Source: Escherichia coli (GTDB taxonomy: Bacteria > Pseudomonadota > Gammaproteobacteria > Enterobacterales > Enterobacteriaceae). Taken from it: DNA of 64,000 bases. Location of the stretch: NCBI RefSeq assembly GCF_024502345.1, contig NZ_JALDNN010000001.1. One strand, 5' to 3'. The notes below the pieces were generated by a model. It saw only the letters and a program-made list of their open reading frames with translations. It had not been told where the DNA came from and made no database searches. Shown one piece after another: positions 16,529 through 50,982 of this stretch. Position 1 is the stretch's first letter. Each line of letters begins with the position of its first letter. The position numbers and the translations under genes are program-made.

Positions 16529-16732
16529 TTGCATTCCTTGTGGTGAAGCAGTATTTAGCGCGATCAAACTGTAAAATTATTGCGGATTCTAGCAGAAGCC
16601 GCTACCGCAAAAGGTTGGCGTTACGTGCCATAGGGCGTTAATGTGCCTCAATTTAACACATGACTGCTCAAACGGCAGTCAAACGTCGCTGAAATTCACA
16701 TTTAATTCACTATTAGTGCCAGGACATTAACA

Positions 16733-21531: not shown

Positions 21532-22113
21532 TTAACCAAAAATTTCCACAAGATGCTTGCGATATTCTTCAGTATAGCGGGGAACATCAGGCATTTTTAT
21601 CACGTCATTAGCGATAAATGTCGGCAGCGGTTCCATGCCAAGGAATTGGTTTGCTTTATGGAACGGCAGATACACACCGTCGACGCCAACGCCGTGGAAG
21701 AATTGATCTTTTTCGGTGAAGGCTTCCATTGGTGCGTTCCAGGTCAGAGAAAGCATATATTTTTTGCCCTGTACCAGGCCGCCGGAACCGTATTTTTTTG
21801 ACGGATCTTTGCGGGTACGGCCATCGCTGGCATACAGCGTTCCATGACCTTCGGTGAATACATCATCAATATATTTTTTCACTGTCCACGGCGCGCCCAT
21901 CCACCAGCCTGGCATCTGCCAGATCACCACATCAGCCCAGAGAAAGTTTTGTACTTCCGCTTTGACATCGTAGTCGCTGTCGGCGCGAACGATGCGGACA
22001 TCATGCCCGAGGTCGCGCAGTGTGCCATCCGCGACTTCGGTCAGGGTGTCGTTCAGTTGACCATTGGAGTGGGCGAATTTTTTCGCGCCGTTGATAATCA
22101 GGATGTTGCTCAT
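21532..22113 (-). CDS. mdaB: NADPH:quinone oxidoreductase MdaB, 193 aa
   Basis: 193-aa ORF; recognised. Confidence 0.92.
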   Translation of the reverse strand: MSNILIINGAKKFAHSNGQLNDTLTEVADGTLRDLGHDVRIVRADSDYDVKAEVQNFLWADVVIWQMPGWWMGAPWTVKKYIDDVFTEGHGTLYASDGRTRKDPSKKYGSGGLVQGKKYMLSLTWNAPMEAFTEKDQFFHGVGVDGVYLPFHKANQFLGMEPLPTFIANDVIKMPDVPRYTEEYRKHLVEIFG

Positions 22114-22431
22114 TTTTTAACCTCAAGGTGAGACGTTTGCCGACTATAGTACGTCACAGAGCGGTACGGTGAAATTAGCAAAATGTGCAAAGTCTTTTGC
22201 GAATTTAGCAAAAGTCTGATCTTGCTCTGACTCACCGATGCAGGATAAATATTTTCTGAAAATGACAATACTGATAGCCATTCCTCATAATTCTTACTCG
22301 CACCGGAATAATTTACACGTTTGGTTCGGTTTTTTTTGGGATTGAAAATATGGCTTTGAATAAGTAAAAGATGAAAATATCAACGTGTCATGTTGATAAT
22401 TATAAATGGATTTTTATGAGCGTACTGATAT

Positions 22432-22764
22432 ATGTTAAAGCATAAAATTCAAACAATATTTGAAGCTCTGTTATACATAATGCTTACTTATTGGTTAATA
22501 GATGCTTTTTTTGCTTTCAATAAGTATGACTGGATGCTTGAGTCGGGAGACAATATTTGCAGTATACCTTCCGTTTCAGGCGAAGATCGTATATTGCAAG
22601 CAATGATTGCAGCATTTTTTCTTCTTACGCCACTTATTATTCTTATCTTAAGAAAACTCTTTATGCGGGAAATGTTCGAGTTTTGGGTATATGTATTCTC
22701 GCTCGGTATTTGTCTGGTTTGTGGTTGGTGGCTTTTTTGGGGACGGTTTATATTTTGCTATTAG
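22432..22764 (+). CDS. ygiZ: Inner membrane protein YgiZ, 110 aa
   Basis: 110-aa hydrophobic ORF, AT-rich; conserved position between mdaB and qseC. Confidence 0.8.
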   Translation: MLKHKIQTIFEALLYIMLTYWLIDAFFAFNKYDWMLESGDNICSIPSVSGEDRILQAMIAAFFLLTPLIILILRKLFMREMFEFWVYVFSLGICLVCGWWLFWGRFIFCY

Positions 22765-22809
22765 TAAAATCTATGAGAGTCGTTTTAACGGCTCTCATAG
22801 ACAGAGAAG

Positions 22810-24815: not shown

Positions 24816-24966
24816 TTTTTCATCCCTGCGATAACCGTATTTGCTGCCAGTAAACCGTGTTGTAACGCGCTCTGTACAGCACTAAATTTTATTTTTTTCC
24901 CTTAAGAAGTTGTTAAGGACTATCTTGTTAAATGCTCGGAAACAGACATTAAAGGGAGTAATAAAC

Positions 24967-49675: not shown

Positions 49676-49863
49676 TCAAACATACGTATTATCTTGCTTT
49701 AATTAATTACACTAATGCTTCTTCCCTTCGTTTTAGCGCCCCGCCGCAGTATCATGATATCGATAACCATAATAAATGTGTGGTAAATGGCGCATCGATC
49801 GCATTATTGATTTTGCGATTGAGGCAAAATATATGCCAGGTCTTCGCAACGGAATAACTATAA

Positions 49864-50982
49864 ATGACTGGAGATAACACCCTCATCCATTCTCACGGCA
49901 TTAACCGTCGTGATTTCATGAAGCTTTGTGCAGCATTAGCCGCCACCATGGGGTTAAGTAGCAAAGCCGCTGCAGAGATGGCCGAATCGGTTACTAACCC
50001 GCAGCGTCCGCCAGTTATCTGGATTGGCGCGCAGGAGTGCACCGGTTGTACGGAATCTCTGCTTCGTGCAACGCATCCAACGGTAGAAAACCTCGTACTG
50101 GAGACTATCTCTCTGGAGTATCACGAAGTACTTTCCGCCGCCTTCGGTCATCAGGTCGAAGAGAACAAACATAACGCTCTCGAGAAGTACAAAGGGCAGT
50201 ATGTGTTAGTGGTGGATGGTTCCATCCCATTAAAAGATAACGGTATTTATTGCATGGTTGCCGGTGAGCCGATTGTGGATCACATCCGCAAAGCGGCGGA
50301 AGGCGCAGCAGCCATTATCGCTATCGGTTCCTGCTCTGCGTGGGGCGGTGTTGCCGCAGCTGGAGTTAACCCAACTGGCGCCGTCAGCCTGCAAGAAGTT
50401 CTGCCAGGCAAAACCGTTATCAACATTCCGGGCTGCCCGCCGAACCCGCACAACTTCCTCGCGACCGTTGCGCACATCATCACTTACGGCAAACCGCCGA
50501 AACTGGATGACAAAAACCGTCCGACCTTCGCCTATGGCCGTCTGATTCACGAACACTGCGAACGTCGCCCACACTTCGATGCGGGTCGTTTTGCCAAAGA
50601 GTTCGGTGATGAAGGCCACCGCGAAGGCTGGTGCCTGTACCACCTCGGCTGTAAAGGGCCAGAAACTTACGGCAACTGCTCAACGCTGCAATTCTGCGAT
50701 GTTGGCGGTGTGTGGCCGGTGGCCATTGGTCACCCGTGCTATGGCTGTAACGAAGAAGGTATCGGCTTCCATAAAGGCATCCATCAGCTTGCCAACGTCG
50801 AAAATCAGACTCCGCGTTCACAGAAACCGGATGTTAACGCTAAAGAGGGCGGCAACGTCTCTGCAGGCGCTATTGGTTTGCTCGGCGGTGTGGTTGGGCT
50901 GGTTGCCGGTGTCAGCGTGATGGCGGTGCGTGAACTGGGTCGTCAGCAAAAGAAAGATAACGCTGACTCACGGGGAGAATAA
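49864..50982 (+). CDS. hybO: Hydrogenase-2 small subunit, 372 aa
   Basis: Tat signal RRDFMK; [NiFe] small-subunit Cys clusters; recognised. Confidence 0.95.

What the first reader, a model, noticed from the sequence alone, without database searches (positions are those of the whole stretch)
22114..22431. mdaB-ygiZ intergenic region: perfect palindrome and repeated TTAGCAAAA motif
Upstream of ygiZ lies a 19-bp palindrome ATCAACGTGTCATGTTGAT (22379-22397) positioned like an operator. Nearer mdaB, the motif (A)TTAGCAAAA occurs twice (~22175-22185 and ~22204-22213), resembling a mar/sox/rob-box-like activator site, which would fit mdaB's role in quinone detoxification. ygiZ itself is strikingly AT-rich.
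Basis: partly seen in the sequence, partly recalled or inferred. Interest (0 to 1): 0.3.

Follow-up and report, generated by a model that had tools for sequence, protein, structure and literature searches.

The report
LysR-type operator upstream of mdaB
The repeated motif next to the quinone-detoxifying gene mdaB is part of a deeply conserved binding site that matches the footprinted site of the Neisseria regulator CrgA, whose E. coli counterpart YafC still has no assigned function. The palindrome next to ygiZ lies in a recently acquired stretch of DNA and is probably not a control site.

Summary
The window is E. coli, and 22114-22431 is the divergent mdaB/ygiZ intergenic region.

**Observation.** It is partly confirmed.
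- TTAGCAAAA is exact at 22175 and 22205.
- The 19-bp palindrome is imperfect (8 of 9 pairs).
- Neither feature is rare in shuffles of this AT-rich DNA.

**mdaB side (22114-22217).** Only this part is ancestral. Across 81 Enterobacteriaceae it carries a near-invariant block: ATTATTGC-N7-GCAAAAGAC-TTTGCACATTTTGC, then a conserved -10.
- The block matches the DNase-footprinted operator of the LysR-type regulator CrgA upstream of Neisseria mdaB: same 4-N7-4 dyad, and the same 53 nt from the dyad centre to the -10.
- E. coli YafC is 60% identical to CrgA. The same TTTTGC-N7-GCAAAA box sits at yafC's own start codon in four of five genera.
- The promoter-proximal half also fits a class II marbox, in line with known MarA/SoxS/RamA induction. 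Consensus matches alone occur at chance frequency.

**ygiZ side (22218-22431).** This belongs to an AT-rich island that is a remnant of an hcp-effector-DUF2645 cassette. The site has three states in E. coli genomes. The palindrome lies in a leader found only in the orphan-ygiZ allele, about 60 nt downstream of the inferred BglJ-RcsB-dependent start. It is unlikely to be an operator.

The parts
21532..22113 (-). mdaB coding sequence (NADPH:quinone oxidoreductase)
   Evidence: ORF and RefSeq annotation of the 100% identical strain E2865.
22121..22124 (-). mdaB Shine-Dalgarno sequence GAGG
   Evidence: Conserved gAGGa just upstream of the ATG in 81 species.
22146..22151 (-). Inferred mdaB -10 hexamer TACTAT, consensus TAnnAT. 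It implies a start near 22139.
   Evidence: GTAnnAT is conserved in 75 of 81 species at a fixed distance from the block. The start site itself has not been measured. A published list places the nearest start at about 22165.
22168..22173 (-). -35-like hexamer TTCACC, 16-bp spacer, overlapping the end of the proximal site
   Evidence: Conserved aTTTcACCg. Inferred.
22172..22191 (-). Promoter-proximal site TTTGCACATTTTGCTAATTT, centred about -42 to -44. It is the counterpart of CrgA site 1 (activation-site position) and also a class II marbox-like 20-mer.
   Evidence: Part of the 23-mer that is exact in 65 of 81 species. TTTGCAC is shared with the CrgA footprint. Marbox matches. Listed as a predicted marbox in PMC12052159 Table S2.
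22191..22217 (.). Distal dyad, the recognition site: AGACTTTTGC-TAAATTC-GCAAAAGACT. The strict box TTTTGC-N7-GCAAAA is 22195-22213 and is centred at 22204, about -65.
   Evidence: Inverted repeat I3. TTGC-N7-GCAAAAG in 77 of 81 species with a variable 7-bp spacer. 15 of 16 conserved positions identical to CrgA site 2. The strict box is absent from 100 shuffles of the window.
22218..22809 (.). The ygiZ island, inserted between the qseC stop codon and the mdaB promoter. It is absent from about 15% of E. coli genomes and from 77 of 80 other Enterobacteriaceae species.
   Evidence: Breakpoints in the ygiZ-less strain L003. Species survey. Population counts.
22246..22267 (+). BglJ-RcsB-type activator box TAAATATTTTCTGAAAATGACA, with TTC at 22254-22256. 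It belongs to the island's own promoter.
   Evidence: Invariant in four diverged alleles and in cassette-bearing strains. It fits the core wwTTCykA. After TTC it is 9 of 11 identical to the mapped bgl site. That ygiZ has such a site was shown by mutagenesis (PMC3950696). Its exact position is my inference.
22307..22312 (+). Inferred ygiZ -10 hexamer AATAAT, with a start near 22319-22322
   Evidence: The paper puts the box centre 65-68 bp upstream of the start. The centre was calibrated on bgl as the first T of TTC.
22291..22431 (+). Leader segment specific to the orphan-ygiZ allele. It is replaced by hcp plus the effector gene in cassette strains.
   Evidence: blastn breakpoints. Present in 3331 of 5426 genomes. 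No similarity to any cassette sequence.
22379..22397 (+). It is a possible leader RNA hairpin.
   Evidence: RNA hairpin of -7.2 kcal/mol, local z-score -2.45. Allele comparison and simulation.
22432..22764 (+). ygiZ (DUF2645), at the position of an orphan immunity gene of an hcp-effector cassette
   Evidence: Pfam match. The Hcp-X-DUF2645 triad is seen.
22770..22801 (.). Terminator-like inverted repeat between the convergent genes ygiZ and qseC
   Evidence: Inverted repeat I2, 15-nt arms, 93% complementary. Also seen as a self-hit.

Best explanation
The intergenic region is a mosaic of two unrelated control regions.

**1. The ancestral mdaB-ygiN promoter (22114-22217).** It carries a two-part operator of the CrgA/YafC type of LysR-family regulator.
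- The distal part is a recognition dyad, TTTTGC-N7-GCAAAA (22195-22213), centred about 65 bp upstream of the inferred start.
- The proximal part begins TTTGCAC (22172-22191), is centred about -42 to -44, and abuts the -35.
- I infer that YafC, the E. coli orthologue of Neisseria CrgA, sits on both sites. On sensing a quinone- or electrophile-related signal it would activate RNA polymerase at the weak -35, as CrgA does for Neisseria mdaB.
- The proximal site also reads as a forward, class II marbox. MarA, SoxS, Rob (and RamA in other genera) may use it, which would account for the published induction.

**2. The left end of a horizontally acquired, AT-rich island (22218-22431).** The island is a remnant of an hcp-effector-DUF2645 cassette.
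- Its own promoter has a BglJ-RcsB box at 22246-22267 and a -10 at 22307-22312. It now drives the orphan gene ygiZ through a leader of about 110 nt.
- The 19-bp palindrome lies in that leader. It is at most a modest RNA hairpin.

**Shown:** the sequences, their conservation, the match to the CrgA footprint, the YafC-CrgA orthology, the box at yafC, and the island polymorphism.

**Inferred:** both transcription starts, YafC binding, and the signal.
For: **Ancestral promoter**
- In 77 of 80 Enterobacteriaceae species qseC stops about 105-110 bp upstream of mdaB with no ygiZ.
- The ygiZ-less E. coli strain L003 joins window 22217 directly to the qseC stop.

**Footprint by conservation**
- Information content is 1.83 bits in the left arm, 0.36 in the 7-bp spacer, 1.91 in the 23-mer GCAAAAGACTTTGCACATTTTGC, 0.77 in the spacer to the -10, and 1.41 in the -10.
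- The dyad stays conserved in Shimwellia, where the upstream gene is different.

**Match to CrgA**
- The published 63-bp DNase footprint of CrgA in the crgA-mdaB region (PMC2724274) reads, in mdaB orientation, GATTATTTC-ATTTGAC-GCAAAAG...TTTGCAC. The enterobacterial consensus is GATTATTGC-N7-GCAAAAG..TTTGCAC.
- The chance expectation for such a match in the 238-bp Neisseria spacer is about 2e-7.
- The distance from dyad centre to -10 is 53 nt in both organisms. The distance to the mdaB ATG is 91 against 89 nt.

**Regulator**
- The Neisseria LTTR in L103 is CrgA (PDB 3HHG, E = 1.6e-196).
- E. coli YafC is 60% identical to it over 293 residues (E = 3e-134), and 52 of 65 residues are identical in the DNA-binding domain. 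The CrgA paper itself calls YafC its close homologue.
- YafC is 84-90% conserved across the same genera that keep the mdaB block.
- The box TTTTGC-N7-GCAAAA ends 2 nt before the yafC ATG in E. coli, Dickeya, Lelliottia and Citrobacter.
- The strict box occurs twice in the window and never in 100 shuffles.

**Marbox layer**
- Searches report the expression data. Searches show the consensus fit.

**Island and ygiZ promoter**
- document the island. Searches support the promoter assignment.
Against: - I could read no direct evidence that YafC binds or regulates mdaB. A YafC ChIP-exo data set exists (PMC6237786), but its target list is in a supplementary figure that is not held. The link may therefore be either absent or already recorded there.
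- The mdaB start site is inferred from a conserved -10. A published list places the nearest start at about 22165. Primer extension failed in Salmonella.
- The spacing between the dyad and TTTGCAC differs by 10 bp between Neisseria and the enterics.
- The one Salmonella yafC locus examined shows no clear box.
- The proximal site is equally well described as a marbox. Published MarA, SoxS and RamA effects could explain its conservation without YafC.
- Two more distant MdaB homologues (about 76-79% identical, Acinetobacter and a Neisseriaceae genome) have no LysR neighbour and no box.
Confidence: 0.65

Rival explanations
1. One reading: the repeated motif is one or two MarA/SoxS/Rob activator sites (marboxes), and nothing else constrains the block.
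For: - mdaB is described as a mar-regulon member, and as RamA-dependent in Salmonella.
- The 20-mer at 22191->22172 matches 12 of 14 consensus positions, with a perfect GCAC.
- It has one mismatch to gcannwwntgnnaaa, is in forward orientation, and is centred about -42.5 from the inferred start, which is class II geometry.
- Both this site and a second register (GCTAAATTCGCAAAA) are in the predicted-marbox table of PMC12052159.
- Repeat 2 equals the TTTAGCAAAA of the marRAB marbox listed there.
Against: - Consensus matches are no more frequent than in shuffles.
- The unspecified 'n' positions of the marbox, and 9 bp outside it, are invariant, while the AAA element varies.
- The distal site has its GCAC position inside the variable 7-bp spacer.
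- The same sequences occur in the footprint of a LysR-type regulator, CrgA, upstream of Neisseria mdaB.
- mdaB is not among EcoCyc's high-quality MarA sites. It is not mentioned in the MarA ChIP-seq paper or in its held supplement.
Confidence: 0.2
2. The palindrome at 22379-22397 is an operator for a repressor or activator of ygiZ.
For: - It is a near-palindrome 35-53 bp upstream of the ygiZ ATG.
- A weak sigma-70-like pair, ATGAAA-18-GATAAT (22371-22400), would place it in the promoter spacer.
- An inverted repeat persists in two diverged alleles.
Against: - It is not perfect.
- 13.8% of shuffles give one as good.
- Promoter-like hits equal the shuffle expectation, 3 against 2.7.
- The experimentally defined ygiZ promoter is BglJ-RcsB-dependent, with its box 65-68 bp upstream of the start. 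That places the start at about 22319-22322 and the palindrome inside the transcript.
- The half-site sequence is not conserved between alleles: 5 of 19 positions differ in L085.
- The whole segment is missing from 39% of E. coli genomes and from other genera.
Confidence: 0.08
3. The palindrome is a functional stem-loop in the ygiZ mRNA leader, affecting stability or translation.
For: - By inference it lies inside the leader.
- The sense-strand hairpin is -7.2 kcal/mol with local z-score -2.45.
- Across alleles there is one compensatory pair (A-T to G-C), and G-T pairs are tolerated only in the sense strand.
Against: - Retention of pairing is not significant: P = 0.22 counting G-U pairs, 0.085 counting Watson-Crick pairs only.
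- In the context of the whole leader the fold is no better than shuffles, z-scores -0.4 to -0.75.
- There is no Rfam match.
- Only three alleles exist to compare.
Confidence: 0.2
4. The conserved inverted repeat next to mdaB is the transcription terminator of qseBC, or it encodes a small protein.
For: - It lies 10-15 bp after the qseC stop codon in most species.
- In Salmonella preB and mdaB are not co-transcribed.
- A reading frame, AKDFAHFANF, runs through the block.
Against: - The spacer positions pair in only 38-46% of species, so the arms are conserved as sequence, not as a stem.
- The stem is AT-rich, no U-tract follows it, and the scan finds no terminator.
- The dyad persists in Shimwellia, where qseC is not upstream, and in Neisseria, next to a divergent gene.
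- 50 of 78 species have no in-frame start codon for the reading frame.
Confidence: 0.03

Closest known systems
CrgA operator in the crgA-mdaB intergenic region of Neisseria meningitidis (LysR-type regulator; PDB 3HHG; PMC2724274)
   Same: - The target gene is the same (mdaB).
- The dyad is the same: GATTATT(G/T)C-N7-GCAAAAG.
- A second site with TTTGCAC follows.
- The orientation relative to mdaB is the same, and so is the distance from the dyad to the -10 (53 nt) and to the ATG (about 90 nt).
- The regulator has a 60% identical orthologue in E. coli, YafC.
   Different: - In the enterics the regulator gene is not adjacent. yafC lies at 0.23 Mb with its own copy of the box.
- The upstream neighbour is qseC or the ygiZ island.
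- The second site is 10 bp closer to the dyad.
- It overlaps a marbox-like sequence.
- Binding by YafC is untested here.
Class II MarA/SoxS/Rob-dependent promoters (forward marbox overlapping the -35)
   Same: - The consensus fit, forward orientation and centre near -42 all agree.
- The gene is reported to be induced by MarA, SoxS and RamA.
- A confirmed marbox of the same regulon, tolC, lies in this window at 16613-16631.
   Different: - Conservation extends over unspecified positions and outside the marbox.
- The site is not in the curated list of well-supported MarA sites, and mdaB is not mentioned in the MarA ChIP-seq paper or its held supplement.
BglJ-RcsB-activated promoters, such as bgl P2 (PMC3950696)
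   Same: - ygiZ is one of the ten promoters shown to be activated, with a site proven by mutagenesis.
- The box at 22246-22267 resembles the bgl site: TTCTGAAAATGACA against TTCCTAAAATTACA.
- It sits the stated 65-68 bp from a -10-compatible start.
   Different: - The exact mutated bases are in a figure I could not read, so the assignment is inferred.
- Here the promoter appears to be the native promoter of an hcp cassette, kept after hcp and the effector gene were lost.
Orphan Hcp-effector-immunity islands of type VI secretion systems
   Same: - A conserved three-gene module has Hcp (159-164 aa), a 236-240 aa protein, and a DUF2645 membrane protein of 109-112 aa in the immunity position.
- It is found at the same qseC/mdaB site in some E. 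coli, Citrobacter werkmanii and a Pseudocitrobacter genome. It is found at other sites in Serratia and Pectobacterium.
   Different: - The middle protein matches no Pfam, NCBIfam or PDB sequence.
- Neither toxicity nor immunity has been tested.
- In this window only the DUF2645 gene remains.

Membership tests
LysR-type regulator operator of the CrgA/YafC type | Interrupted dyad of the T-N11-A kind (4-N7-4) | tested here: met
   TTGC-N7-GCAA at 22197-22211. Present in 77 of 81 species with constant spacing and a variable spacer.
LysR-type regulator operator of the CrgA/YafC type | Sequence match to an experimentally footprinted site of the regulator family | tested here: met
   15 of 16 conserved positions are identical to CrgA site 2, and TTTGCAC is shared with site 1. 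Chance expectation about 2e-7.
LysR-type regulator operator of the CrgA/YafC type | Recognition site near -65 and a second site next to the -35 | tested here: inconclusive
   The centres fall at -65 and about -42 to -44, and the dyad-to-(-10) distance equals that in Neisseria. However, the start site is inferred from a conserved -10 and has not been measured.
LysR-type regulator operator of the CrgA/YafC type | A cognate regulator is encoded in the genome and co-conserved | tested here: met
   YafC is 60% identical to CrgA overall and 52 of 65 residues identical in the DNA-binding domain. It is 84-90% conserved across Enterobacteriaceae.
LysR-type regulator operator of the CrgA/YafC type | The same box in the regulator's own control region (autoregulation) | tested here: met
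   TTTTGC-N7-GCAAAA ends 2 nt before the yafC ATG in 4 of 5 genera. It was not seen in the Salmonella locus.
LysR-type regulator operator of the CrgA/YafC type | Binding of the protein and dependence of the promoter on it | not testable with these tools
   The YafC ChIP-exo targets are in a supplement that is not held.
MarA/SoxS/Rob marbox (class II) | Match to AYnGCACnnWnnRYYAAAYn or gcannwwntgnnaaa | tested here: met
   12 of 14 positions, and 1 mismatch, for 22191->22172.
MarA/SoxS/Rob marbox (class II) | The match is more than chance | tested here: not met
   17 matches against 16.7 expected, and 27 against 24 expected, in the window.
MarA/SoxS/Rob marbox (class II) | Forward orientation, centred between -36 and -55 | tested here: inconclusive
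   Forward, and centred at -42.5 from the inferred start. Relative to the nearest listed start it would be centred at about -16.
MarA/SoxS/Rob marbox (class II) | Conservation follows the informative positions of the marbox | tested here: not met
   The 'n' positions and 9 flanking bp are invariant, while the RE2 element varies as TAAT/TCAT/ACAT.
MarA/SoxS/Rob marbox (class II) | Direct binding and activator-dependent transcription | not testable with these tools
   Expression dependence is reported. The site is not in the curated high-quality list, and mdaB is not mentioned in the MarA ChIP-seq paper or its held supplement.
Repressor operator at the ygiZ promoter (the 19-bp palindrome) | Dyad overlapping the core promoter or the start site | tested here: not met
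   The inferred start is 22319-22322, so the palindrome lies about +58 to +79.
Repressor operator at the ygiZ promoter (the 19-bp palindrome) | Half-site sequence conserved in orthologous regions | tested here: not met
   5 of 19 positions differ in the diverged E. coli allele and 3 of 19 in E. whittamii. The segment is absent elsewhere.
BglJ-RcsB box | Core wwTTCykA, and a centre 65-68 bp upstream of the start | tested here: met
   TTTTCTGA at 22252-22259. The -10 AATAAT at 22307-22312 fits a start at 22319. Similarity to bgl is shown.
Type VI secretion orphan immunity gene (ygiZ) | Encoded directly downstream of hcp and a candidate effector in related loci | tested here: met
   The triad is conserved in five genera.
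Type VI secretion orphan immunity gene (ygiZ) | Neutralises the cognate effector | not testable with these tools
   No experimental data were found. DUF2645 appears in no held paper.

The most novel reading that the evidence does not exclude
YafC, still described as an uncharacterised LysR-type regulator of E. coli, is the dedicated regulator of the quinone-detoxification operon mdaB-ygiN throughout the Enterobacteriaceae. It would act through the conserved dyad at -65 and the site at -44, as CrgA does in Neisseria. The published MarA/SoxS/RamA 'marbox' at mdaB would then overlap a YafC activation site, or partly be one. A second strict box 35 bp upstream of hybO (window 49811-49829) hints that the regulon reaches hydrogenase 2, which is linked to the quinone pool.
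Probability: 0.5. Interest if true: 0.6.

Novelty: new member of a known kind. Interest (0 to 1): 0.5.

Why it matters
- mdaB is a textbook member of the mar/sox/rob multidrug and oxidative-stress response. Yet its promoter has no well-supported binding site on record in the sources I could read.
- YafC is one of the E. coli transcription factors still listed without a function.
- Linking them through an operator that is conserved from Neisseria to E. coli would assign a target, and a likely signal class (quinones or electrophiles), to YafC.
- It would show that a 'marbox' call can hide a different regulator's site.
- It gives simple experiments to run.
- The same analysis shows that half of this 'intergenic region' is a variable type VI secretion island remnant. 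That matters for anyone using K-12 as the reference for ygiZ or qseC-mdaB regulation.

Tried and rejected
- **Terminator for qseC.** Rejected: the spacer positions pair in only 38-46% of species, and the dyad is kept without qseC upstream.
- **Small ORF across the block.** Rejected: 50 of 78 species have no start codon.
- **Known RNA family.** None found at E <= 1.
- **QseB/PreA site at mdaB.** A PmrA-like direct repeat, CTTAAG-N5-GTTAAG, is present in the qseB-ygiW spacer, but nothing similar lies upstream of mdaB.
- **YcaN as the CrgA orthologue.** It is a LysR-type gene divergent from a flavodoxin-like reductase. Rejected: 26% identity, and no box in the ycaN-ycaK spacer.
- **LysR neighbour of mdaB in other taxa.** None in Acinetobacter, a Neisseriaceae genome or Shimwellia.
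- **Origin of the orphan-type leader (22291-22431).** No similarity to the hcp cassette or to hcp upstream regions in five loci.
- **Alternative BglJ-RcsB box AATTCTTA (22289-22296).** Not conserved between alleles, and it lacks the AA tail.
- **Start-site data.** Not obtainable from Kim 2012 or Thomason 2015. The figures of the BglJ-RcsB paper are not held.
- **Literature for the exact sequence.** Searches for the mdaB marbox sequence found nothing. DUF2645 appears in no held paper.
- **The 236-aa cassette protein.** No family or solved relative.
Full report
**Identity and observation**

The window is Escherichia coli, 100% identical to strain E2865 over the region. The genes are parE, ygiN, mdaB (21532-22113, minus strand), ygiZ (22432-22764, plus strand) and qseC. 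The finding therefore covers the whole 318-bp divergent mdaB/ygiZ spacer.

- TTAGCAAAA is exact at 22175 and 22205, and occurs nowhere else in the window. Each copy is part of a 13-nt repeat with 30-bp spacing.
- The 19-bp palindrome is at the stated place but is imperfect, with 8 of 9 pairs.
- In shuffles of this 35% G+C spacer, 13.8% contain a palindrome as good and 23% contain an exact 9-mer repeat. Neither feature is evidence by itself.

**The spacer is a mosaic**

Only 3329 of 5425 complete E. coli genomes carry the stretch colinearly. Comparison with variant strains and counts over 5426 genomes give three states of the site.

| State | Genomes | Share |
|---|---|---|
| Orphan ygiZ preceded by segment 22291-22431 | 3331 | 61% |
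| Complete cassette hcp, 236-aa protein, ygiZ | about 1265 | 23% |
| No island; qseC stop about 110 bp from mdaB | about 830 | 15% |

- The empty state is ancestral. It is found in 77 of 80 other Enterobacteriaceae species, including the reference genomes used for E. coli and E. albertii. It also matches the 106-bp preB-mdaB spacer described in Salmonella.
- The island spans window 22218-22809.
- The Hcp-X-DUF2645 triad recurs at the same site in Citrobacter werkmanii and a Pseudocitrobacter genome. It occurs at unrelated sites in Serratia and Pectobacterium.
- ygiZ therefore sits in the immunity position of a mobile type VI secretion cassette. That explains its AT-richness.
- The middle protein has no known family.

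**The mdaB side: phylogenetic footprint**

I aligned 115 bp upstream of mdaB from 81 species. In mdaB orientation it shows ATTaTTGC, seven variable bases, GCAAAAGACTTTGCACATTTTGCt.ATTT, about 20 variable bases, GTAnnAT, and then the ribosome-binding site.

| Element | Information content (bits per position) |
|---|---|
| Left arm | 1.83 |
| 7-bp spacer | 0.36 |
| 23-mer GCAAAAGACTTTGCACATTTTGC | 1.91 |
| Spacer to the -10 | 0.77 |
| -10 | 1.41 |

- The 23-mer is exact in 65 of 81 species.
Repeat 2 is the left arm of the dyad plus three spacer bases.
- The pair exists as a direct repeat in only 4 of 81 species.
- The dyad is not a hairpin under selection, because the spacer positions pair in only 38-46% of species.
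- It is not a qseC terminator, because it is kept in Shimwellia with a different upstream gene.
- It is not a small ORF.

**The marbox reading**

- The 20-mer at 22191->22172 fits AYnGCACnnWnnRYYAAAYn at 12 of 14 positions, and gcannwwntgnnaaa with one mismatch.
- With the conserved -10 (TACTAT, 22151->22146) the start would be near 22139 and the site centred at -42.5 in forward orientation. That is the class II definition used in PMC12052159.
- mdaB is described as MarA-, SoxS- and RamA-responsive. The 15-mer appears in that paper's table of predicted marboxes.
- Against this, such matches occur at chance frequency.
- mdaB is absent from the curated list of well-supported MarA sites. It is not mentioned in the MarA ChIP-seq paper or its held supplement.
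- Conservation is strongest at positions the marbox leaves free, and outside the marbox, while the AAA element varies.

**The LysR reading**

The layout is two 4-N7-4 units 21 bp apart, centred at about -65 and -44. That is the classic recognition-site and activation-site arrangement of LysR-type regulators, as summarised.

- A literature search for mdaB and LysR led to Neisseria meningitidis CrgA. CrgA is encoded divergently from mdaB and activates it.
- Its 63-bp DNase footprint is printed in the Methods of PMC2724274. In mdaB orientation it reads CTGATTATTTC-ATTTGAC-GCAAAAG-TGTTTTCTTATT-TTTGCAC-TTTTAAATT.
- The dyad matches the enterobacterial consensus GATTATTGC-N7-GCAAAAG at 15 of 16 conserved positions with the same spacer length. 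TTTGCAC follows in both.
- I recovered a Neisseria contig with the full footprint, mdaB and the regulator. The regulator is CrgA (PDB 3HHG).
- The distance from the dyad centre to the likely -10 is 53 nt in both organisms. The distance to the mdaB ATG is 91 against 89 nt. TTTGCAC is one helical turn closer to the dyad in the enterics.

**The regulator**

- YcaN was tested first and rejected.
- E. coli YafC is 60% identical to CrgA over its whole length (E = 3e-134). 52 of 65 DNA-binding-domain residues are identical, including the stretch ANSAVSR. The CrgA paper itself names YafC as the close homologue.
- YafC is 84-90% conserved across the genera that keep the mdaB block.
- Directly before the yafC start codon lies TTTTGC-TCCTGTT-GCAAAA. 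The same box, with a different spacer, ends 2 nt before the ATG in Dickeya, Lelliottia and Citrobacter, but not in the Salmonella locus examined.
- The strict 19-bp pattern occurs twice in the window, upstream of mdaB and 35 bp upstream of hybO, and never in 100 shuffles.
- Papers from 2022 and 2025 still call YafC uncharacterised.
- A ChIP-exo study of YafC exists, but I could not read its target list. I cannot tell whether the mdaB link is already recorded there.

**The ygiZ side**

- ygiZ is one of ten promoters shown to be activated by BglJ-RcsB. Its binding site was proven by mutagenesis and is centred 65-68 bp upstream of a 5'-RACE start.
- The figure is not held, so I calibrated on bgl. 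With the published starts and the CRP site, the bgl box centre falls on the first T of AAATTCCTAAAATTACA.
- In the window, TAAATATTTTCTGAAAATGACA (22246-22267) fits the stated core. After TTC it is 9 of 11 identical to bgl. It is invariant in four diverged alleles and in cassette-bearing strains.
- This predicts a start at 22319-22322, which agrees with a -10 AATAAT at 22307-22312.
- In cassette strains a TATTAT sits at the equivalent place upstream of hcp. This looks like the cassette's own promoter.

**The palindrome**

- It lies about +58 to +79 in a leader of about 110 nt that exists only in the orphan allele.
- It can form a -7.2 kcal/mol hairpin.
- It keeps 7-8 pairs in two diverged alleles, with one compensatory change. 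A simulation shows that this is not significant, P = 0.085 to 0.22.
- It has no Rfam match. No promoter signal beyond chance overlaps it.

**Verdict**

- The marbox guess points to the right DNA and may be partly right. The strongest evidence identifies the block as a CrgA/YafC-type LysR operator. This is a new member of a known kind and gives a testable function to YafC.
- The ygiZ palindrome is most likely an incidental feature, or at most a minor RNA feature, of a recently remodelled island.
- Both transcription starts and YafC binding are inferences. The experiments that would settle them are listed under the decisive next steps.

Noticed in passing
window 49811-49829: A second strict copy of the box TTTTGC-N7-GCAAAA (TTTTGCGATTGAGGCAAAA) lies 35 bp upstream of the hybO ORF (hydrogenase 2 small subunit, starting at 49864). 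The pattern never occurs in 100 shuffles of the window. It is a possible further YafC target. Conservation was not checked.
   Followed up: partly
window 22218-22809; L002, L097, L018, L077, L089-L092: ygiZ (DUF2645) is the last gene of a mobile three-gene cassette: Hcp, an uncharacterised 236-240 aa protein with an AWIESGG motif, and DUF2645. E. coli is polymorphic for three states of the site: 61% orphan ygiZ, 23% full cassette, 15% empty. The middle protein has no Pfam, NCBIfam or PDB relative, and only about 34 clusters of homologues, all unnamed.
   Followed up: partly
L004 (ISKpn26 at window 22175-22178), L086 (IS1 after window ~22324), L002 (IS3 inside hcp): Insertion sequences have hit this spacer repeatedly. 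In L004 an IS5-family element sits at the TTAG inside the proximal mdaB site and should disconnect mdaB from its upstream dyad. That strain's mdaB is also frameshifted.
   Followed up: no
window 16613-16631 (-): ATGGCACGTAACGCCAACC, with one mismatch to the marbox consensus, lies in the tolC-nudF spacer. It corresponds to the known tolC marbox listed as confirmed by ChIP-seq. It is a useful internal positive control.
   Followed up: partly
window ~24901-24917: The direct repeat CTTAAG-aagtt-GTTAAG in the qseB-ygiW spacer has the layout of a PmrA/QseB-type response-regulator site. Nothing similar lies upstream of mdaB, although PreA (QseB) overexpression raises mdaB in Salmonella.
   Followed up: no
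window 22770-22801: A 15-nt-arm inverted repeat, 93% complementary, lies between the convergent stop codons of ygiZ and qseC. It is likely a bidirectional terminator brought in with, or created by, the island.
   Followed up: no
window 22343-22351 and 22372-22380; 22416-22445: There is an exact 9-mer direct repeat TGAAAATAT, 29 bp apart, in the ygiZ leader. There is also a 9-codon upstream ORF (ATGAGCGTACTGATATATGTTAAAGCATAA) that overlaps the ygiZ start codon out of frame.
   Followed up: no
window ~22165 and ~22213 (U00096.2 3170500 and 3170452): A published list of 28,107 start sites places starts inside the conserved block rather than downstream of the conserved -10. Either these are minor or processed ends, or the promoter architecture is more complex than inferred here.
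   Followed up: partly
L085 (E. coli 13E0767) 1319-1675: About 306 E. coli genomes carry a diverged allele of the orphan-type leader, 74% identical, with a 39-bp insertion just before the ygiZ start.
   Followed up: partly
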